A stretch of DNA of 64,000 nt from a virus. The notes beneath the pieces are model-generated. The model saw nothing but the letters and a program-made list of their open reading frames with translations. It searched no databases and had not been told where the DNA came from. The stretch lies in IMG/VR virus record IMGVR_UViG_3300025009_000004, positions 1 to 64,000 of that record; one strand, 5' to 3'. How positions within the stretch are numbered: the stretch's first letter is position 1; each line of letters starts with the position of its first letter. Below are positions 7-45,600 of the stretch, piece after piece. Position numbers and translations under genes: made by a program.

Positions 7-35
7 ATTTTAGCATACATCAAAATGAATGTCAA
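7..35 (-). promoter_or_regulatory. sigma70/sigmaA-type promoter firing leftwards out of the window
   Basis: Minus strand reads TTGACA-N17-TAAAAT with TG extended -10. Confidence 0.75.
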
Positions 36-59
36 GAACTTTTTTAGAATAATTAAAAT

Positions 60-215: not shown

Positions 216-313
216 CATAGCCATTCTTCATTTCAAGTATTTTACAAATAACTTGCCTAAACCCTCTACGCTTTTAATTCATAATAAATTATAAAATAAT
301 TTAAAAATAGTTC

Positions 314-342
314 TTGACATTTGTTAGTTGATGTAGTAAAAT
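314..342 (+). promoter_or_regulatory. sigma70/sigmaA-type promoter of the DIP1984-like/ncRNA/tRNA operon
   Basis: TTGACA(314-319)-N17-TAAAAT(337-342); 301-321 is identical to 2250-2270. Confidence 0.8.
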
Positions 343-390
343 AAGAATATAGGAAGGCAAGATAACATTAAAGTTAAAGGAGCAACAAAT

Positions 391-1011
391 ATGGAAAAGA
401 TTTCGGTGACTCGCGGGCTGTCTGAATTAAAAACCATAACCAAACGAATACAGGGAGCAATCACGGGGACTCCATTTTTGGCGATAGCAAGACAAGACGG
501 AGAAAAGACATACGACAACCAGAATAAAAATGAATTTGCATCTAATGTTAAATCATCGTTCGACAGTATATATTCATTAATTGAAAGATGGCATAAAATA
601 AAAATAGCAATTATAAAATCTAATGCCGAAACAATAGTCGATTTTAATGGAGAAAAAATATCTGTATCTGCATGTATCGAAAGAAAGAAAAGCGTTGAAA
701 GCAAGAAACTCCTAAAAAGCACTTTGGTAAGCCAATTGGTAAGTATTGATAAATGTGTTAAAGATGCAAATAAAAAAGTTGAAGAATCTTTGGAAAGAGT
801 ATTACAAGCACAGAGCGTTGGCGCTGATAAAAAATCCACAAGTCTCGATGAGTTTATTGGTCTTTATCGTAAAATGAATTGTTTTGATATTTTCGATCCG
901 ATGGGTATCAAAACTAAAGTAAAAGAGATAGAAGAAGAAATTACAAAATTTGAATCAGAAATAGATTTTATTTTATCAGAAAGCAACGCCAAGACGTTCA
1001 TTGAAATTTAA
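391..1011 (+). CDS. DIP1984/septicolysin-like coiled-coil protein
   Basis: 206 aa, AAGGAG RBS; motifs SVTRGLSELK..KRI, IKIAIIKSNAET.V, SVSACIERK and C-terminal EIDFILSESNAKTFIEI resemble this helical family. Confidence 0.6.
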   Translation: MEKISVTRGLSELKTITKRIQGAITGTPFLAIARQDGEKTYDNQNKNEFASNVKSSFDSIYSLIERWHKIKIAIIKSNAETIVDFNGEKISVSACIERKKSVESKKLLKSTLVSQLVSIDKCVKDANKKVEESLERVLQAQSVGADKKSTSLDEFIGLYRKMNCFDIFDPMGIKTKVKEIEEEITKFESEIDFILSESNAKTFIEI

Positions 1012-1015
1012 ATAA

Positions 1016-1275
1016 TATAAAATATTACATATACGAGAACGGCAACACTTATCCGCCTGGGCCAGCGCATGTCCCAATGCATTCCGTTGAGCAACGGCAA
1101 AATGCTCGTTAAAGGTTAAAGATAAATGCTTAAAGATAAAGTTTTAAAGTTTAAGTTTTGTTAGTTAAAGATTAAAAATAAGAGATTAAATTTAGTTAAA
1201 ATCCTTGAAAAAACTTTATCCTATTGATAAGTCTGAGGCGCTATTCATACAGGGCTGTATATGTAATATTTTATA
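1016..1275 (+). ncRNA. Candidate structured ncRNA with internal TTAAAG-like tandem repeats
   Basis: Perfect 19-bp terminal inverted repeat (1016-1034/1257-1275), GC-rich 5' hairpins, about 12-13 degenerate WTAAAG units at 1109-1200, 3' stem CCTTG/CAGGG. Confidence 0.7.
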
Positions 1276-1283
1276 ATATATGA

Positions 1284-1355
1284 AGGCGTGTAGCCAAACG
1301 GTAAGGCAACGGGTTTTGGTCCCGTCATGTAGAGGTTCAAATCCTTTCACGCTTA
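1284..1355 (+). tRNA. tRNA-Gln(TTG)
   Basis: Cloverleaf; anticodon arm ACGGG-TT TTG GT-CCCGT; T arm AGAGG-TTCAAAT-CCTTT. Confidence 0.9.
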
Positions 1356-1361
1356 TTTCAT

Positions 1362-1446
1362 GGAGAGCTGTGCGAGTGGCTGATGCAGATTGTCCTGAAA
1401 ACAATTTAACAGAAATGTTACTGGGGTTCAAATCCCTAGCTCTCCT
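1362..1446 (+). tRNA. tRNA-Ser(TGA), atypical C33
   Basis: Acceptor GGAGAGC/GCTCTCC; anticodon arm ATTGT-CC TGA AA-ACAAT; long variable arm. Confidence 0.8.
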
Positions 1447-1448
1447 TT

Positions 1449-1532
1449 GGAAGAATGTTGGAACTGGTATTCATCACGGACTTAAAATCCGTGGCCCGCA
1501 AGGGATTGAGGGTTCGACTCCCTCTTCTTCCA
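1449..1532 (+). tRNA. tRNA-Leu(TAA)
   Basis: Acceptor GGAAGAA/TTCTTCC; ACGGA-CT TAA AA-TCCGT; long variable arm; A73. Confidence 0.92.
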
Positions 1533-1537
1533 TACTT

Positions 1538-1611
1538 GGGTAAATGGTGCAACTGGCAGACACGCTTGTCTCAAAAACAAGATATTAACGGTTCAAATCC
1601 GTTTTTACCCA
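1538..1611 (+). tRNA. tRNA-Leu(CAA) with short variable loop
   Basis: Acceptor GGGTAAA/TTTACCC; CTTGT-CT CAA AA-ACAAG; 5-nt variable loop. Confidence 0.85.
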
Positions 1612-1614
1612 TGC

Positions 1615-1698
1615 GGAGAGCTGTTGGAACTAGCAGACATCATAGTCTTAGAAACTATGGGGCGAAAGCTCGTGAGAGTGCAAATCTCTCGCTCTCTA
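1615..1698 (+). tRNA. tRNA-Leu(TAG)
   Basis: ATAGT-CT TAG AA-ACTAT; long variable arm; T loop TGCAAAT. Confidence 0.85.
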
Positions 1699-1716
1699 TT
1701 TTAATAAAAATAACTT

Positions 1717-1798
1717 GGATATCTCGCCTAATGGTATGGCACAACATTGGAAATGTTGCGACCGCAAGGTTGTATAGGTTCAAATCCTGCGATATCCG
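1717..1798 (+). tRNA. tRNA-Ser(GGA)
   Basis: Acceptor GGATATC/GATATCC; CAACA-TT GGA AA-TGTTG; long variable arm; G73. Confidence 0.9.
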
Positions 1799-1802
1799 TA
1801 CT

Positions 1803-1887
1803 GGGGGAATCGCCTAATGGTATGGCACATGACTCGAAATCATGCGGCAGAAATGCTGTAAGTGTTCGACCCACTTTTCCTCCGCCA
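1803..1887 (+). tRNA. tRNA-Ser(CGA)
   Basis: CATGA-CT CGA AA-TCATG; long variable arm; G73 and encoded CCA. Confidence 0.9.
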
Positions 1888-1888
1888 A

Positions 1889-1970
1889 GGAAGGTTAGAC
1901 TAATGGCAAGTCACAGGTTTGCTAAACCTGCGTCAGAAATGGCTTGAGTGTTCAAATCACTCACCTTCCG
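1889..1970 (+). tRNA. tRNA-Ser(GCT)
   Basis: Acceptor GGAAGGT/ACCTTCC; CAGGT-TT GCT AA-ACCTG; long variable arm; G73. Confidence 0.92.
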
Positions 1971-1997: not shown

Positions 1998-2183
1998 GTG
2001 ACAATGAATCATAAGATCGATCCTTTACTTAAAATAGACAAACAGTTCTCAACTAAACTTAAGAATGAGGACTATGTTGTATTTGAAAAGATATCCGATG
2101 ATATGGGCGTTGGCGTGGGAACGCTAACCCGTATGCTCATCATGGAATATCTTCACAAGAAAGCTAAAGAAAATAAAGAATAA
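1998..2183 (+). CDS. Small ribbon-helix-helix-like DNA-binding protein
   Basis: Strand FSTKL followed by two helices (G...GTLTRMLIMEYL). Confidence 0.45.
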   Translation: MTMNHKIDPLLKIDKQFSTKLKNEDYVVFEKISDDMGVGVGTLTRMLIMEYLHKKAKENKE

Positions 2184-2208: not shown

Positions 2209-2240
2209 ATAAGCCTATTCCCGTAGGCTTATTTTATTTT
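2209..2240 (+). terminator. Intrinsic terminator
   Basis: ATAAGCCTA/TAGGCTTAT stem followed by T-rich tract. Confidence 0.7.
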
Positions 2241-2262
2241 ATAGGAAAGTTAAAAATAGTTC

Positions 2263-2291
2263 TTGACATTCCGATTGTGATATGTTAAAAT
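2263..2291 (+). promoter_or_regulatory. sigma70/sigmaA-type promoter
   Basis: TTGACA-N17-TAAAAT with TG extension. Confidence 0.8.
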
Positions 2292-36129: not shown

Positions 36130-37305
36130 ATGCGAAAGGTAGTTCATGGCGGAGTTTATTTTAAACAAGAAACTAAAAACAGAATATTTGAATTAATGAA
36201 AGCCCAATGCTCCGCAATTCATTCTGCATTCCAAGCTATACATAAGTATGAACAGACGGGGAACGCAGTCAAGAAGTATGTTAAAATAAACTTTATGAAA
36301 TATCTAAATCAACGCTATGTTTCAGATGCTTGCACCGTTGCCTCTAGCATTATATCAGAACATGTACTGTTTGGCGGAAAGAGAACATGGGAAGAACTCC
36401 AAACGGGCAGAATTACTAAAGAACAATGGCTTCAAAAGCGAAACAGTCAGTTATTTTCACAAGGTGATGCAGCCAAGGATGGAAATCCTAACATCAGAAT
36501 TAAGGGAAACAAAATATATGTAAACGACCCTGCCATAAGAGGCAAGTGGCTAGAAGGCTCTGTGTTTATTCCTATTAAGTTTAAAGGATGGATTTCACAG
36601 TGCTATAATGCTCGTCTTATCTATAAAAATAATAAATTTAAGATAGTGATTTCATTTGAGGTCGAAACCCCCGAATTAATAATCACTTCTAAAAAGCAAG
36701 GCGTTATCGGGATAGACACTAACCCAGATCAGCTTGCAGTTTCTGAAACCAACAAAGATGGCAACCTTATCAATCATTATTCCTCCAAACTCCAAAGGAT
36801 TCAATTTGCTCGAAAGGAAAAGCGGGACTATGACGTTCAAGTAGCGGCCAAGAACATAGTAAATAGCGCCATTGATAAAGGAAAACCTATAGTTATAGAA
36901 AAATTAAACTTTAAAAAAGATAATAAAGGAACAAAGAAATTTAAGAGAATGAAACATAATTTCCTTTATCGTAAATTAACAGAAGCAATTAAGACTCAAG
37001 CCGCTAAACATGGCGTATTAGTAGAAGAAGTTAATCCAGCGTTTACAAGTATATTAGGTCAACTCAAATACCGAGGAATGCTCTCGTTGAGTTCTCATGA
37101 ATCTGCTGCGTTAGTGATAGCGCGTAGGGGAATGGGTTTTAGAGAACGGCAAACTTTTAATATAACTAAAGACCCCAAGAAATCGGGATATTGGAACCTT
37201 GAAGGAAGAAAATATTCGAAGAGTATTGGAACAAAAGCTTTAGATTATTTGAAAGATTGTTTCCTCAAGCCTCCGCTCACTGCGGTTGATTTGGTCCCGT
37301 TGTAA
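36130..37305 (+). CDS. tnpB: TnpB-related RuvC protein (divergent, no zinc finger)
   Basis: GIDTNP, VIEKL, VNPAFTS, HESAALVIARR. Confidence 0.8.
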   Translation: MRKVVHGGVYFKQETKNRIFELMKAQCSAIHSAFQAIHKYEQTGNAVKKYVKINFMKYLNQRYVSDACTVASSIISEHVLFGGKRTWEELQTGRITKEQWLQKRNSQLFSQGDAAKDGNPNIRIKGNKIYVNDPAIRGKWLEGSVFIPIKFKGWISQCYNARLIYKNNKFKIVISFEVETPELIITSKKQGVIGIDTNPDQLAVSETNKDGNLINHYSSKLQRIQFARKEKRDYDVQVAAKNIVNSAIDKGKPIVIEKLNFKKDNKGTKKFKRMKHNFLYRKLTEAIKTQAAKHGVLVEEVNPAFTSILGQLKYRGMLSLSSHESAALVIARRGMGFRERQTFNITKDPKKSGYWNLEGRKYSKSIGTKALDYLKDCFLKPPLTAVDLVPL

Positions 37306-40380: not shown

Positions 40381-41802
40381 ATGCCAGATATAGTAGATAT
40401 AAATTCTCAGATCGCTGATTGTCCTATCGACTTATCTGGCGACCCCGTAATACAGAGTGAAGTTGACTTACTGTGCTTAATATCAGATTATCCTACATCA
40501 ATAGAATCAATAGCGCCAAATATACCGGATGAAATGATAAGCAATAGCGCAGTTGGAAAGTTAATTAAGGCTGTATTAAGAGGGCAACAGCAAATTACGC
40601 ATTCGATAGTAGAAGAGACTGTTAATAATCCGATTTACAATGTTAAACGTAGCGTGTTTAAAATCTCAGATGTTCCTAAAATAATAGAGGCACTGCTATC
40701 GCATTATAAGCATAGATTCTTTACAAAGAAGCTGCCACAATCGTTATTAGCATGCAAATCACTATCGGATGCTGTAAGTAATATTAATGACGCTTATACA
40801 ATCGCCTTAACGGGGTTAGCCAAATACGAAGTTAAAGACAATAGCCTTTATGCCGGCGATTTCATGTCATATATCAACCGTAAGGAAGATATATATAAAA
40901 CAGGAATTAGAGTAATTGATAATTTAATAACAGCTCGTGGCATTGCATTATCTCAACTTATAACACTTGCAGCCGATACAGGCGTTGGTAAAACACTAAT
41001 CGCCGTGCAAATTCTTGAATATATCGCACAAATGTATAATGTGCCGTGCTGCATGTTTTCACTTGAAATGCCAATTGAGCAAATGCTATCTCGCAGAATA
41101 GTTCATTACCTCAACGGATGCATAACAGCAGATCAGCTTATACGAAAAGAAATACCAGATGAGAGATTCCTTGAGATAGAGCAATCAGCAATACAAATGG
41201 CTAAAACACCAATATTCATAAGAGATGATTTATATAACTATTCCGATATAACAAACGCAATACGAGCAATGGTTCCTAAGGGTTTTAAATTCTTTGTAAT
41301 CGATTTATTACAGTTAATCAAGATGCCTGGCTCTAAGTTATCAGAGCGCGAACGCATAGATTGGATTACATCAGAACTTAAAATATTAGCAAATAAATAT
41401 AAAGTAACAATATTCTTGGTTAGTCATCTACATCGTAAAGATGATATCAAAATGAGAACAGATGGCTCAATAGTTCAAAGAGAACCTGGCTTGGCAGATT
41501 TAAAAGGAGCCTCTGGTATTGAGCAGAATAGCGATAAAGTTATGATGCTCTGGTCTCCAGAGGTAGTAAATCCGAAGACAGATAATCCGAATATGTATCG
41601 TTATCTTAAGTTTGGATTGAAGAAGGATAGGTTCGGCAGAGAGTTTAGCATATGGCTGAAACACAATACAATGAGTGGAGTAATTGAAGAATGTATTCAG
41701 CAAGATATAATCTATATCGAGTCTATGATTAATTTACAGAACTCTAAACAAAAACAAAATAATTTCAAAACGTATCAAAAACAATTTAATGAAGGAGAGT
41801 AA
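40381..41802 (+). CDS. dnaB: DnaB-like replicative helicase
   Basis: AADTGVGKT, FSLEM, VIDLLQL, DLKGASGIEQNSD, K.RFG. Confidence 0.9.
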   Translation: MPDIVDINSQIADCPIDLSGDPVIQSEVDLLCLISDYPTSIESIAPNIPDEMISNSAVGKLIKAVLRGQQQITHSIVEETVNNPIYNVKRSVFKISDVPKIIEALLSHYKHRFFTKKLPQSLLACKSLSDAVSNINDAYTIALTGLAKYEVKDNSLYAGDFMSYINRKEDIYKTGIRVIDNLITARGIALSQLITLAADTGVGKTLIAVQILEYIAQMYNVPCCMFSLEMPIEQMLSRRIVHYLNGCITADQLIRKEIPDERFLEIEQSAIQMAKTPIFIRDDLYNYSDITNAIRAMVPKGFKFFVIDLLQLIKMPGSKLSERERIDWITSELKILANKYKVTIFLVSHLHRKDDIKMRTDGSIVQREPGLADLKGASGIEQNSDKVMMLWSPEVVNPKTDNPNMYRYLKFGLKKDRFGREFSIWLKHNTMSGVIEECIQQDIIYIESMINLQNSKQKQNNFKTYQKQFNEGE

Positions 41803-42697: not shown

Positions 42698-45600
42698 ATG
42701 ATACATTCTCATATTCACACATGCTTTTCCGCTAAGGACTCTCTTGTTCGTATTAAAGACTTAGTTAAATCGGCTAAGGATCGCGGATATAAAGCATTGG
42801 CAATTACAGACCATGGTTCAATAGGAGGCTCTCTTGATTTTTACGATGAATGTATCGCTAACGATATTAAGCCTCTTATTGGATGCGAGTTCTACTTAAA
42901 ATCAGAAACTAAACTAACCACAAATTCACAAGAACGCATGCATATTATTGTGATATGCAAGAATAAAGCAGGTTGGAATAATTTACTCAAACTATTTAAA
43001 CTATCACATATTAACTCGCATTATGTTCCTTTAACTTCATTCGATGACTTGGCAAACCATAGAGAAGGATTGATCTGTACGACAGCATGCTTTGCAGGGC
43101 CGTTAGCAACGCCCATCATGAACTCACGACCTGACTTAGCCATTGAGAATTTAGGGCGCCTTAAATCAATCTTTAAAGATGATTTGTATTTAGAATTACA
43201 GCCCAACTCACTACCATCGCAGCAAACAATAAACAATAATATTTATAAATTAGCGATTGAACACGAATTGCCTTATATTATTGGCATAGACACACATTAT
43301 ATGAACTTATCCGAGGCGAAGGCACAAGAAACATTACTTGGAATTAACATGAGAGCCACGATACTTGACCCCAAGAAAAATGCAGAGGCAGAAAATAAAG
43401 AAGAAGATGGAACCGGAGCAAAGAAAAAATATCGATTCGCGTTCGATAGTCATGACTTCTGGTTTATGACCGAGGAAGAGTTATATAAGCTATGGGATGA
43501 GAACCATAAGGAAATAGGCAAAGGCGTCGAAGAAGGAGATGCACCACATATAATAGCATTAATAAAAGCATTAGATAACGGGCAAGCAATGGCAGATAAA
43601 GTTGAAACATTCTCTATTTATCCGGATAGGTCAAAACTGAATATGACCTATGATATGACGGCAATAAGCGATAGAGAATTTAATCACTTCTTAGAAATAG
43701 ATACAGAACATAAAACACAGCCATTATCGTTAAAATTCTTAAGATATTTGTGTCATGTTGGTATTAAAGAAAAGGGAATCCTCGATAAGCCTAATGCTCA
43801 AGAATATATCGATAGAGTTAGACACGAATTAAAGGATATTGAAGAGGCAAATATCTATGATTACTTATTAATTGTGTGGGATTTAATGAAGTGGTGCCGT
43901 GAAAACTCAATAGGTACAGGGGTGGCCAGGGGTTCTTCGGCGGGGAGCCTTTGCACATATCTTATGGATATTCATGGCGTTGATCCAGTTCAATATGGAT
44001 TATTATGGGAGAGATTCTATAATGCAGGGAGAAAAGGCAGTCTCGCAGACATCGACATCGATTTCAGCTCTTTGCTTAGAGCAAATGTTATAGAATATCT
44101 TGTAACTAAATATGGTATAGATAAAACATCAATGATATGTAATTTCTCTTTCTTTCGCCCCAAATCAACATTTAAATCAGTATGTAAATTTTATGGCGTT
44201 ACATATGAACAAGTTAATGAAGCATTAAAAGATGGCCGCCATATTGAAGAAGAGGAAGAAGATGTTATAGAACAATCTGAAATTAACTTATCTGTTGTTA
44301 AAAAAGAAATGCAAGAACTATTTACTATTAAAGCAGTCAATGAACTATTAGATTCTAATCCATATACCGAGGATATCAAACGAGATTGTATGGCAATTGT
44401 TGGATGCATATCTAATAAATCAGTTCATGCCTCTGGTATCGTTATAGCGTCTGATAGTTTAGAAAATTTATGCCCCACGATGACAAATAAATCTAAGAAT
44501 GAAGCAATGTCAGCAATACAGCAAACCACAGAATGGGACATGAAGATGTTAGATCGTGCTGGCTTTATGAAATTAGATATATTGGCACTTAAAACAGTTG
44601 ATATAATAAATGATACAATCAAGAGCATTAACAAACCAGAACATACGATGCACTCATGGAAGATGTTGGATAAGACTGACCCAGAGGTTCTCAATCTATT
44701 CACAACCGGACAAACGTCTGGTGTATTTCAATTTGATTATGGCAAAGAGTTACAGAGATTATGTCTTGAGTTTAAACCTAAATCATTTGCAGATATATGC
44801 GCTCTTACTGCACTTGGACGCCCTGGTGCCAAAATGTTCCTTGAGCAATACATGAGAAACAGAACAAAAGCAGAACATGAAATAGTTTTAGAAGACCCCT
44901 TGCTTAAACCAATACTTCACGAGACTAATTATGTGTTGGCGTATCAAGAGCAACAGATGGCAATAGCAAAAGACTTGTGTGGCTTTAATCTTAAGGAAGC
45001 AGATGATTTACGAAAGATTATTGCTAAGAAACAGGAAAGCAAAATACCAACAATGAGGCAGAAGTTTATTGATGGATATGTTAAGCGTACTGGCAAAGGG
45101 GATATAGCGATAAAAATATGGGACGCTTACTTCTCTAATTGCGAATATCTATTTAATAAATCTCATGCCGTAGCATATTCATTCAATTCATATGCAACCG
45201 CGTATTACAAACGATATTATCCTATTGAATTTATGGCCGCTGTTATAGATGCTAACAATGATGGAAAGCGTGAAGCAGTTGTTCCTTATATTCATGAATG
45301 TATGAGGATGAAGATACCGATTCATACGCCGAACATAAGGTTCTCGCCGGCAATAACATATGGAGATAAAGAGAATAAATCAATCTATCTTGGCTTAAAT
45401 ACAATAATGGATATGTCAAATCAAATGGCAGCTAAATCGACTAAGATGGAAAGTGATAACGATTTAATTGATTTATTGTTTAATATGCCTAAGTCTCAGT
45501 ATGAAGCGATGATATTATCTGGCGCCTGTGATACATTAATTAAAGGAATTAATCGTCGCTCGTTACTTGAAACGGTTAGCAGTTATCATAAACTTAAAGC

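What the first reader, a model, noticed from the sequence alone, without database searches (positions are those of the whole stretch)
391..1275. DIP1984-like coiled-coil protein paired with a closed, repeat-bearing ncRNA at the head of a tRNA operon
Seen: 4 nt after the stop codon begins a 260-nt segment closed by a perfect 19-bp stem (1016-1034/1257-1275). It contains GC-rich 5' hairpins (TGGG/CCCA, CCGTTG/CAACGG), a ~90-nt poorly pairing run of about 12-13 degenerate 6-7-nt units (TTAAAG, ATAAAG, TTTAAG...) at 1109-1200, and a 3' stem domain. It ends 8 nt before tRNA-Gln, so RNase P cleavage would release its 3' end, and I saw no separate promoter. Inference: a two-component ribonucleoprotein in which an oligomeric helical protein binds the periodic repeats (scaffold, ruler, sponge, or RNA antitoxin loosely analogous to type III TA repeats). 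I know no characterised function for this pairing. Top candidate for an undescribed system.
Basis: partly seen in the sequence, partly recalled or inferred. Interest (0 to 1): 0.85.

Follow-up and report, generated by a model that had tools for sequence, protein, structure and literature searches.

The report
Widespread phage protein with partner RNA
A small helical phage protein of unknown function is followed, here and in hundreds of other phages including T5, by a conserved folded RNA with AAAG motifs spaced every seven bases, a pairing absent from the RNA family library and the papers searched.

Summary
A perfect 19-bp helix (1016-1034 with 1257-1275) closes a 260-nt segment. It starts 4 nt after the stop codon of ORF 391-1011 and ends 8 nt before tRNA-Gln.

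The segment is the window's copy of a conserved structured RNA. A model of its 3' domain hit 83 of 85 sources, once each, on the gene's strand and downstream of a homologue of the protein. The two helices tested on 29 sequences covary: 86.7% of cells paired against 55.8% shuffled, and 17 of 20 pairs changed on both sides. AAAG motifs lie 7, 14 or 21 nt apart.

The protein belongs to phrog_1491, as does T5 gene T5.085. It is found in 612 phage records and 3,684 clusters at 50% identity. Its model matches PDB 3kdq alone (Z 11.9), which supports "DIP1984-like" by fold only. A homodimer is modelled (0.59; best control 0.00).

Rfam 15 has no match, and seven paper searches found no description of the pair.

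That the protein binds the RNA is inferred, not shown, and the function is unknown. My best reading is an early-made ribonucleoprotein, often encoded beside phage tRNA genes. A type III toxin-antitoxin membership is not supported.

The parts
314..342 (+). Sigma-70-type promoter (TTGACA, 17 nt, TAAAAT) for the whole unit. The same promoter box recurs at 2263-2291 (+) and 35-7 (-).
   Evidence: 11 of 12 matches; repeat families D5, I1 and I3.
376..382 (+). Shine-Dalgarno-like AAAGGAG, 8 nt before the ATG.
   Evidence: Read.
391..1011 (+). Gene for a 206-aa helical protein of phrog_1491. Its fold resembles PDB 3kdq and a homodimer is modelled.
   Evidence: E 6.9e-53, residues 1-206; pLDDT 88.4.
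1016..1034 (+). P1, 5' strand of the closing helix. It can be extended to 1007-1034 and then overlaps the stop codon.
   Evidence: Two compensatory changes (at 1027 and 1033) and one wobble change against L001. Family-wide covariation.
1035..1040 (+). Conserved junction after P1. It reads GAGAAC here; the family consensus is CGAAAAC.
   Evidence: Alignment A2.
1058..1076 (+). 5'-domain hairpin, TGGG with CCCA. In the relative L001 it reads AGTG with CACT. Its loop may pair with 1077-1083 as a pseudoknot, which is not shown for this lineage.
   Evidence: A pseudoknot at the matching place is supported in the enterobacterial subgroup.
1084..1097 (+). Second 5' hairpin, CCGTT with AACGG.
   Evidence: Its outer pair is lost in L001.
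1109..1200 (+). A-rich tract of about 12 degenerate units of roughly 7 nt built around (T)TAAAG.
   Evidence: Heptad spacing across 46 representatives.
1198..1204 (+). Conserved AAAATCC motif (family consensus TTCAAATCC). Its two C residues open helix P5.
   Evidence: Alignments A2 and A3; invariant columns.
1203..1254 (+). P5 helix (1203-1207 with 1250-1254). It encloses the hairpin 1214-1220 with 1226-1231.
   Evidence: RNAalifold predicts P5 on its own. Four of 6 pairs changed on both sides.
1253..1257 (+). Conserved GGCTG motif joining P5 to P1.
   Evidence: Alignments A2 and A3.
1257..1275 (+). P1, 3' strand of the closing helix (can be extended to 1284).
1188..1270 (+). Match to covariance model R1 (the RNA's 3' domain). 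It is the only match in the 64-kb window.
   Evidence: 46.7 bits, E 1.6e-7. The window was a seed of the model.
1284..1970 (+). Eight tRNA genes: Gln, Ser, Leu, Leu, Leu, Ser, Ser, Ser. The first begins 8 nt after P1.
1998..2183 (+). 61-aa ORF at the end of the unit; no family found.
2209..2232 (+). Intrinsic-terminator-like hairpin followed by a T run; the likely end of the unit.

Best explanation
Positions 1012-1283 are the window's copy of a widespread, structured phage RNA that I could not find described. It is always encoded directly 3' of a roughly 205-aa helical protein of phrog_1491, the family that includes T5 gene T5.085.

Architecture of the RNA:
- A long closing helix, P1.
- A conserved junction (consensus CGAAAAC).
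- A 5' hairpin domain, which is pseudoknotted in the enterobacterial subgroup.
- A variable insertion site that in some phages holds a whole tRNA.
- An A-rich tract of 5-12 or more AAAG motifs in 7-nt register.
- A TTCAAATCC motif.
- Helix P5 enclosing a hairpin.
- A GGCTG motif, then the 3' strand of P1.

Shown: the conservation, the covariation, the strand, the adjacency to the gene and the heptad spacing.

Inferred:
- In this window the gene, the RNA and eight tRNAs are transcribed together from the promoter at 314-342.
- RNase P cutting at the 5' end of tRNA-Gln sets the RNA's 3' end.
- The 19-28-bp P1 helix may also be an RNase III site that frees the RNA from the mRNA.
- The protein, modelled as a homodimer, binds the RNA to form a ribonucleoprotein, most simply with several dimers along the heptad tract.

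My rough odds:
- 0.95 that this is a genuine structured RNA family.
- 0.55 that the protein binds it.
- 0.35 that the tract is the binding site.
- At most 0.2 for any specific cellular role. My best guess is action on host or phage RNA metabolism or translation, linked to tRNAs.
For: Linkage:
- Model R1 of the 3' domain hit 83 of 85 sources, one hit each, all on the gene's strand and 250-900 nt after the gene start region. The misses were L025 and L080; L080 has no downstream DNA.
- 54 of the 56 sources that were not seeds were hit, as were 16 of the 17 non-seed representatives.
- Four annotated phage records carry 400-490 nt without a CDS after the gene.
- Of 29 IMG/VR matches to a 5'-domain pattern, 11 had both the protein and an R1 hit and 18 had neither. 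None had the RNA alone.

Structure:
- On 29 sequences, P1 plus P5 give 86.7% paired cells, against 55.8% in shuffles and 37-44% when the partners are slid.
- 17 of 20 pairs changed on both sides, and the covariation score is 0.78 against 0.22, reached by 0 of 500 shuffles.
- RNAalifold finds P5 unaided.
- In the enterobacterial subgroup the hairpin is 100% paired and the pseudoknot 70.5%.
- Against L001 the window shows two compensatory changes and one wobble change in P1, and TGGG/CCCA becomes AGTG/CACT.

Strand:
- By my tally of the pair types, about 67 of 562 cells are G-U pairs, which would be mismatches on the other strand.
- AAAG occurs 359 times against 107 for CTTT in 46 representatives, and AAAG exceeds CTTT in 43 of 46.

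Heptads: distances between successive AAAG motifs peak at 7 (40 cases), 14 (19) and 21 (14).

Protein:
- phrog_1491, E 6.9e-53.
- 612 phage records.
- 3,684 clusters at E 1e-3 or better and 1,650 at 1e-30.
- Structure model with pLDDT 88.4.
- 3kdq at Z 11.9, 151 aligned residues of a 152-residue chain.
- Dimer score 0.59 against a best control of 0.00. That mark was reached by 20 of 30 proteins solved as pairs and 1 of 23 solved as single chains. The runs share at least 93% of contacts and pLDDT is at least 85.

tRNA link:
- The RNA ends 13 nt or less before a tRNA in 12 of 46 representatives, by my comparison.
- Whole tRNAs lie inside the RNA in L013 and L071.
- In the 25 of 46 loci that hold a tRNA gene, every one is on the same strand as the module.
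Against: - No experiment or RNA-seq data show that the RNA accumulates or that the protein binds it.
- The loci were collected through the protein, so RNA copies without the protein would mostly have been missed. The one reverse test covers only one subgroup and one exact pattern.
- P1 boundaries were chosen with a duplex search, which inflates its paired percentage. P5 was not chosen that way.
- The tract is only slightly less paired than its flanks in thermodynamic predictions (0.42 against 0.38 and 0.34), so 'exposed single strand' is not established.
- The dimer pass may reflect likeness to the solved 3kdq crystal, which has four chains.
- tRNA genes are absent from 21 of 46 representative loci, so a tRNA-related role is not required.
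- The protein has no recognisable RNA-binding domain.
Confidence: 0.55

Rival explanations
1. The RNA works alone, as an RNA-only machine or scaffold like other ornate phage RNAs found near tRNA genes. The upstream protein is co-expressed but is not a physical partner.
For: The RNA has elaborate conserved structure. It sits beside tRNAs, as I recall for GOLLD and ROOL RNAs; the abstract of 10.1101/2024.12.08.627333, seen in the listing, reports RNA-only complexes for those RNAs. The protein has no known RNA-binding domain.
Against: The gene and the RNA keep the same order and direct adjacency in 83 of 85 sources, across phages of Gram-negative and Gram-positive hosts. That is hard to explain without functional coupling. 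No copy without the protein was seen in the limited reverse test.
Confidence: 0.2
2. It is a cis-acting 3' untranslated element. The closed structure would stabilise the upstream mRNA, or steer RNase III and RNase P processing of the gene-tRNA precursor, and would have no function in trans.
For: P1 starts at or in the stop codon. The RNA abuts a tRNA 5' end in 12 of 46 representatives. There is no promoter or terminator of its own in the window.
Against: A processing signal does not need 260-450 nt with a pseudoknot, conserved single-stranded motifs and a heptad tract. Twenty-one of 46 representative loci hold no tRNA gene, and some relatives' RNAs, such as L002 and L003, are followed by terminator-like hairpins. 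An embedded tRNA would cut the RNA in two, yet P1 and both domains are kept (L013, L071).
Confidence: 0.12
3. It is a toxin-antitoxin-like pair in which the repeat RNA neutralises a harmful protein, loosely like type III systems.
For: A protein gene lies next to a repeat-bearing RNA. The number of repeats varies widely, up to 23-28 AAAG motifs in L039 and L068.
Against: There is no match to any Pfam, NCBIfam or PADLOC toxin family. The units are 7 nt, not about 36 nt. They lie inside a scaffold and downstream of the gene. The carriers are large virulent phages such as T5, where addiction modules are not expected. The module is kept in 441 T5-like records.
Confidence: 0.08
4. It is a DNA-level element: an origin with iterons, a protein-binding array, or a small mobile element with terminal inverted repeats.
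For: It has inverted repeats at its ends and short AT-rich repeats inside.
Against: By my tally about 12% of helix cells are G-U pairs, valid only on the + strand. There is strong AAAG over CTTT bias, a single copy per genome window, and a fixed position after one gene family. An interior helix and a pseudoknot also covary.
Confidence: 0.03

Closest known systems
PDB 3kdq, an uncharacterised Corynebacterium diphtheriae protein (by my recollection this is DIP1984), and Pfam DUF6847 (PF20935)
   Same: The overall helical fold matches: Z 11.9, 151 aligned residues of a 152-residue chain; Foldseek probability 1.00. The nearest ESM Atlas clusters that carry a Pfam family carry DUF6847 in 16-25% of members. 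Two of 24 relatives give weak PF20935 hits. Neither family has a known function.
   Different: The phage protein is about 50 residues longer, and sequence identity is about 15%. The window's protein has no Pfam or NCBIfam hit. Whether bacterial DUF6847 genes have a partner RNA was not tested.
Type III toxin-antitoxin systems (ToxIN type); features recalled from established knowledge
   Same: A protein gene lies next to a repeat-bearing non-coding RNA that is thought to bind an oligomeric protein.
   Different: In those systems tandem repeats of about 36 nt precede the toxin gene and are cut by the toxin, which is an endoribonuclease. Here 7-nt motifs sit inside a folded scaffold after the gene, and the protein is an all-helical DUF6847-like fold with no toxin family match.
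Csr/Rsm-type sponge RNAs (CsrB, RsmZ); recalled
   Same: Many copies of a short motif on one RNA, suited to binding several copies of a dimeric protein.
   Different: Those motifs are GGA in hairpin loops, and the partner gene is encoded elsewhere. Here the motif is AAAG in strict 7-nt register within one tract, and the candidate partner gene is adjacent.
Stable RNAs of phage tRNA clusters: T4 species 1 and 2 RNAs (recalled), and T5 'RNAX' (annotated in AY543070)
   Same: Phage-encoded, lying among or beside tRNA genes, probably released by tRNA-processing enzymes, function unknown.
   Different: T5 RNAX (40848-41566) is a different locus, about 1.5 kb from the T5 copy of this RNA, which is unannotated. 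No protein partner is known for those RNAs.
GOLLD and ROOL large ornate RNAs (Rfam families; context recalled)
   Same: Ornate RNAs of unknown function, associated with phages and prophages and often near tRNA genes.
   Different: No Rfam match at E up to 1 or up to 0.1. This RNA is smaller (260-450 nt against about 580-800), has a heptad A-rich tract, and is tied to one protein family.
tmRNA with SmpB, and Y RNA (YrlA) with Ro/Rsr
   Same: The 5' and 3' ends pair to close the RNA. There are pseudoknots or tRNA-like inserts, and a small dedicated protein partner.
   Different: ARAGORN finds no tmRNA. There is no Rfam tmRNA or YrlA match on the RNA; the only YrlA row, in L002, lay on tRNA genes. 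There is no acceptor end or tag reading frame, and the protein is unrelated.

Membership tests
phrog_1491 (PHROGs family, labelled 'tail fiber protein') | Full-length match to the family profile | tested here: met
   E 6.9e-53, residues 1-206 on profile positions 2-209 of 211. I think the 'tail fiber' label is an annotation carried over from elsewhere: the gene lies in early or replication regions, and nothing here supports a tail role.
DIP1984 / DUF6847 (PF20935) | Sequence match above Pfam's curated cut-off (27 bits) | tested here: not met
   The window's protein has no PF20935 hit at E up to 0.1 and no NCBIfam family hit. Two of 24 relatives hit PF20935, best E 1.6e-4. A family search of the Bacillus phage Hobo genome found none.
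DIP1984 / DUF6847 (PF20935) | Same fold as the solved representative (3kdq) | tested here: met
   VIA-align Z 11.9, rmsd 4.8, 151 aligned of a 152-residue chain, next best Z 7.8. Foldseek E 0.013, probability 1.00. That 3kdq is DIP1984 is my recollection; the entry's title says only 'functionally unknown conserved protein from Corynebacterium diphtheriae'.
Type III toxin-antitoxin | Toxin of a ToxN/AbiQ-type endoribonuclease family | tested here: not met
   No such Pfam, NCBIfam or PADLOC match. The modelled fold is all-helical and 3kdq-like.
Type III toxin-antitoxin | Tandem direct repeats of about 34-36 nt upstream of the toxin gene | tested here: not met
   The units are about 7 nt (14-nt period by TRF; heptad spacing), and they lie downstream of the gene inside a closed scaffold.
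Any Rfam 15 family (including tmRNA, 6S, YrlA, GOLLD, ROOL) | Covariance-model match on the RNA | tested here: not met
   No match on the RNA in the window or in L001-L003 at E up to 1, nor in 12 further loci at E up to 0.1. Only tRNAs and chance rows over tRNAs appeared.
tmRNA | tRNA-like acceptor end and a tag reading frame | tested here: not met
   ARAGORN reports tRNAs only.
Csr/Rsm-type sponge RNA | Repeated GGA motifs in hairpin loops | tested here: not met
   The repeated motif is AAAG in a 7-nt register; the sequence was read.
The RNA family proposed here (model R1) | TTCAAATCC motif, P5 helix, GGCTG motif and P1, downstream of a phrog_1491 gene | tested here: met
   The window matches at 1188-1270 with 46.7 bits, though it was a seed. 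The P1 and P5 pairs are present.

The most novel reading that the evidence does not exclude
Large virulent phages of both Gram-negative and Gram-positive bacteria, including the model phage T5, make an undescribed ribonucleoprotein early in infection. A DUF6847/DIP1984-fold dimer would coat or count a heptad AAAG tract displayed by a pseudoknotted, helix-closed scaffold RNA. The scaffold is released by tRNA-processing enzymes and tolerates a tRNA inserted in its middle. Such a particle would be a new class of phage RNP acting on host translation, RNA decay or tRNA-directed immunity. It would also give a first functional lead for the bacterial DIP1984/DUF6847 proteins, as RNA-binding proteins.
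Probability: 0.4. Interest if true: 0.9.

Novelty: categorically new. Interest (0 to 1): 0.82.

Why it matters
The protein family is very large: 3,684 clusters at 50% identity and 612 sequenced phages. It is annotated either as 'hypothetical' or, I think misleadingly, as 'tail fiber protein'.

Three points follow from showing that it always comes with a conserved, intricately folded RNA.
- It turns a common unknown gene into a two-part system that can be tested.
- It adds a new structured RNA class that Rfam 15 lacks.
- It places that class in T5, where genetics and biochemistry are easy.

The strict 7-nt register of the AAAG motifs is unusual. I could not match it to any Rfam family or to any bacterial RNA that I know. 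It suggests a regular protein-RNA assembly.

The frequent position beside phage tRNA genes, and tRNAs inserted into the RNA, link it to the current question of why phages carry tRNAs and how they meet tRNA-targeting defences. If the bacterial DUF6847 relatives also have RNA partners, the finding would reach beyond phages.

Tried and rejected
**Own genome.** No genome is held for this window.

**Expression.** No RNA holder was listed among public runs. The holders are DNA runs labelled groundwater, sediment or soil metagenome. Laying contigs of four of those runs gave pieces identical to the window over the RNA (for example 956-1389 and 925-1328, with no other letters) and so no new variants.

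**Close relatives.**
- IMG/VR and the metagenome collection each gave one close relative (L001 and L088). Their RNA is identical over the aligned stretch, so the window's own lineage offers only one comparison.
- An exact 36-nt stretch of the RNA found nothing in IMG/VR.
- The genome collection gave no relative of the single protein.

**Protein by sequence.**
- A PDB search found nothing significant. 3kdq appears only at E 0.28 with the family profile.
- PADLOC gave only chance-level rows.
- BFVD gave only uncharacterised phage proteins.

**Bacterial DUF6847 relatives.**
- I could not test whether they have a downstream RNA. The exhaustive profile search listed only full-length members of the phage family among its best 150.
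- The PF20935 control search rang in Deinococcus radiodurans but gave no locus.

**Reverse test for the RNA without the protein.** Of 29 pattern matches, 18 were chance matches. The one I read (L091) lies on the reverse strand of what looks like a gene start in an unrelated phage.

**T5 anti-defence island.**
- I read passages of preprint 10.1101/2023.03.15.532788. Rad is a different protein, of 189 aa.
- The module survives in the T5 deletion record AY692264, so I take it to lie outside that island.
- I did not locate the preprint's ORF72 and ORF73.

**Other roles considered.** A Hfq, RNase E or anticodon-loop decoy role for the AAAG tract was considered, as was complementarity to a tRNA anticodon loop. 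None was tested, and none is claimed.

**Papers.**
- Searches that found no description of this pair: DIP1984: one unrelated paper; DUF6847: none; T5.085: none.
- PMC10690425 lists about 10,000 candidate phage RNAs. I read matched passages only, and its supplementary tables could not be opened, so pieces of this RNA may be listed there.
Full report
**1. What is in the window.**

The window looks like part of a large virulent phage. It holds a family-B-like DNA polymerase, a DnaB-like helicase, NrdD and SbcC-like genes, all on the + strand. The DNA occurs in public runs labelled groundwater, sediment or soil metagenome.

At its left end lies one apparent transcription unit:
- A strong sigma-70-type promoter at 314-342 (TTGACA, 17 nt, TAAAAT; 11 of 12 matches).
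- An AAAGGAG ribosome-binding site at 376-382.
- An ORF at 391-1011, 206 aa.
- A 272-nt gap at 1012-1283.
- Eight tRNA genes at 1284-1970: Gln, Ser, Leu, Leu, Leu, Ser, Ser, Ser.
- A 61-aa ORF at 1998-2183.
- A terminator-like hairpin with a T run at 2209-2232.

The next copy of the same promoter box follows at 2263-2291.

**2.

Positions 1016-1034 and 1257-1275 are perfectly complementary over 19 nt. With three mismatches the helix extends to 28 nt (1007-1034 with 1257-1284).

TAAAG occurs six times in 1100-1200 against 0.36 expected, and no 101-nt stretch of the window holds more.

The single-sequence fold is only modestly better than shuffles (z -2.7). The predicted openness of the repeat run is only slightly above its flanks. 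Taken alone, the window would not prove an RNA.

**3. Comparison shows a conserved pair.**

*The protein.*
- It matches phrog_1491 over its whole length (E 6.9e-53).
- tblastn finds it in 612 phage records, 590 of them covering at least 80% of the query.
- These include T5-like phages, rV5-like phages, Pseudomonas KIL- and phiPsa374-type phages, Bacillus Bastille-type phages, a Clostridium botulinum phage, and Xanthomonas and Lactococcus 949-type phages.
- An exhaustive profile search counts 3,684 clusters at 50% identity with E 1e-3 or better, and 1,650 at 1e-30.

*The gap after the gene.*

In four annotated records from different phage groups the gene is followed by a stretch with no CDS:

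| Phage | Locus | Gap |
|---|---|---|
| Hobo | L002 | 488 nt |
| KIL2 | L003 | 466 nt |
| IrisVonRoten | L004 | 442 nt |
| Seu621 | L005 | 401 nt, up to a tRNA |

In T5 itself the gene is T5.085 (43505-44143). The stretch downstream of it carries no RNA annotation.

*The common plan.*

Reading these gaps and 80 IMG/VR loci shows one plan. In order, it is:
1. The 5' strand of P1, directly after the stop codon.
2. A CGAAAAC-like junction.
3. A hairpin whose loop pairs with a downstream segment.
4. A variable region.
5. The tract of AAAG motifs.
6. TTCAAATCC.
7. A short helix, P5, enclosing a hairpin.
8. GGCTG.
9. The 3' strand of P1.

**4. Tests of that plan.**

*Covariation of P1 and P5.*
- On a MAFFT alignment of 29 non-redundant sequences (A2), P1 (14 pairs) plus P5 (6 pairs) give 86.7% paired cells.
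- The controls give 55.8% in shuffles and 37-44% with the partners slid.
- 17 of 20 pairs changed on both sides, in 191 cells.
- The covariation score is 0.78 against 0.22, reached by 0 of 500 shuffles.
- P1 boundaries had been picked with a duplex search, which favours pairing. P5 was not picked that way, and RNAalifold predicts it unaided.

*The pseudoknot.*
- In nine enterobacterial-type sequences the 5' hairpin is 100% paired.
- The pseudoknot is 70.5% paired, with three of its five pairs changed on both sides.
- The three sequences that break it pair in a shifted register, by my reading of the alignment.

*Strand.* By my tally about 67 of 562 helix cells are G-U pairs. AAAG outnumbers CTTT 359 to 107, and AAAG is the more frequent in 43 of 46 representatives. 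Both point to an RNA read from the gene's strand, not a DNA element.

*The window's own lineage.* Against its one close relative (protein 88% identical, L001 and L088), the window shows two compensatory changes and one wobble change in P1. TGGG/CCCA is replaced by AGTG/CACT.

*Linkage.*
- A covariance model of the 3' domain (R1) hits 83 of 85 sources.
- There is one hit per source, always on the gene's strand and downstream of the gene, and none elsewhere in the 64-kb window.
- The misses are L025 and L080, and L080 ends at the gene.
- In a limited reverse test, 29 IMG/VR matches to a 5'-domain pattern split into 11 with both protein and R1 hit and 18 with neither.

**5. The tract.**

Distances between successive AAAG motifs in 46 representatives peak at 7 (40 cases), 14 (19) and 21 (14). 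The motifs therefore keep a 7-nt register. U is favoured two positions after the G (64%) and two before the first A (58%).

Copy number varies. Most RNAs have 5-12 motifs, and L039 and L068 have 23-28.

I did not find conserved pairing within the tract, but I did not test for it exhaustively.

**6. The link to tRNAs.**
- Twenty-five of 46 representative loci hold at least one tRNA gene within about 3.6 kb, and every one is on the module's strand.
- In 12 of 46 a tRNA starts 13 nt or less after the RNA, by my comparison.
- L013 and L071 carry a whole tRNA inside the variable region, and others carry tRNA-like fragments there.
- An embedded tRNA would be cut out by RNase P and RNase Z. The RNA would then survive as two pieces held together by P1, which suggests that P1 is a clamp and the variable region a permissive site. 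This is inference.
- Where no tRNA follows, terminator-like hairpins do, as in L002 and L003.

**7. The protein.**

*Model.* AlphaFold2 with 24 relatives gives a confident model (pLDDT 88.4) of long helices capped by short strands.

*Conserved motifs.* The alignment shows two similar motifs, KSNAET and LSESNAxT. Each lies at the end of a long helix just before a strand, which suggests an internal repeat and a polar conserved pole.

*Fold.*
- The only outstanding PDB match is 3kdq (Z 11.9, 151 aligned residues of a 152-residue chain, next best 7.8; Foldseek probability 1.00).
- It is an uncharacterised Corynebacterium diphtheriae protein, which I recall as DIP1984.

*Sequence.*
- The link to that family by sequence is faint. 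The window's protein has no Pfam or NCBIfam hit, and 2 of 24 relatives reach PF20935 DUF6847 at E 1.6e-4.
- ESM Atlas neighbours include clusters that carry DUF6847.

*Oligomer.*
- A homodimer model scores 0.59 against a best control of 0.00.
- That mark was reached by 20 of 30 proteins solved as pairs and 1 of 23 solved as single chains.
- The runs agree in at least 93% of contacts and pLDDT is at least 85.
- The pass may owe something to the solved 3kdq crystal.

No nuclease, toxin, defence or RNA-binding family matches.

**8. What it most likely is and does.**

Shown: a conserved, structured, strand-specific RNA family tied to one protein family.

Inferred: co-transcription, release by RNase P (and perhaps RNase III in P1), and formation of a ribonucleoprotein in which dimers of the protein bind the heptad tract.

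The function is open. The early-region position in T5, the frequent tRNA neighbourhood and the wide host range point to a universal target in RNA metabolism or translation. I hold any specific role at 0.2 or less.

The rivals, with my odds, are:
- an RNA that works alone (0.2);
- a purely cis-acting processing or stability element (0.12);
- a toxin-antitoxin-like pair (0.08);
- a DNA element (0.03).

**9. Comparison with what is known.**

No Rfam 15 family matches the RNA in the window or in 15 relatives' loci. ARAGORN finds no tmRNA.

Type III toxin-antitoxin membership fails on the toxin family, the repeat length and the gene order. Csr/Rsm-type sponges share only the idea of repeated short motifs. 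T5's annotated 'RNAX' is another locus.

Seven paper searches found no description of the pair. One large catalogue of candidate phage RNAs (PMC10690425) could not be checked because its supplements are closed.

I therefore rate the pair as new in kind, with the caveat that its function is unknown.

**10. Verdict.**

Binding, mechanism and role remain to be shown. T5 offers a direct experimental route.

Noticed in passing
window 298-321, 2247-2270 (+) and 28-54 (-): The same promoter box of about 24 nt (AAAAATAGTTCTTGACATT type) recurs three times. The copies at 35-7 (-) and 314-342 (+) form a divergent pair. This looks like a phage-specific early promoter consensus.
   Followed up: partly
window 1284-1970: The tRNA set is odd. 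Seven of the eight are long-variable-arm (class II) tRNAs, four Ser and three Leu, plus one Gln. No other tRNA gene lies in the 64 kb.
   Followed up: no
window 1998-2183: A 61-aa ORF closes the tRNA unit. It has no Pfam or PHROG match.
   Followed up: no
L086 (T5, AY543070) 40848-41566: T5 carries an annotated misc_RNA 'rnaX, stable RNA with unknown functions' about 1.5 kb from its copy of the RNA described here. It is a separate locus.
   Followed up: no
L039, L068 (also L044, L049), downstream of the gene: In these IMG/VR phages the R1 3' domain lies 600-900 nt after the gene. In L039 and L068 the gap holds long runs of GAAAAG-type 6-nt repeats, with 23-28 AAAG motifs. This looks like an expanded form of the tract.
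   Followed up: partly
L013 (downstream 95-169) and L071 (2238-2311): Complete tRNA genes are embedded inside the RNA, between its 5' domain and the AAAG tract. The one in L013 has an odd anticodon loop by ARAGORN.
   Followed up: partly
Proteins P0154 (409 aa) and P0165 (474 aa): Two library proteins hold two and three matched stretches of the family profile. They are possibly tandem or fused forms.
   Followed up: no
window 36130-37305: An ORF with a transposase-like PHROG match (phrog_506, E 6e-14) lies inside the replication gene block.
   Followed up: no
RefSeq and other phage records, e.g. NC_005859 (T5): The gene is widely labelled 'tail fiber protein' in phage records. Nothing in its position, fold or relatives supports that name.
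   Followed up: partly
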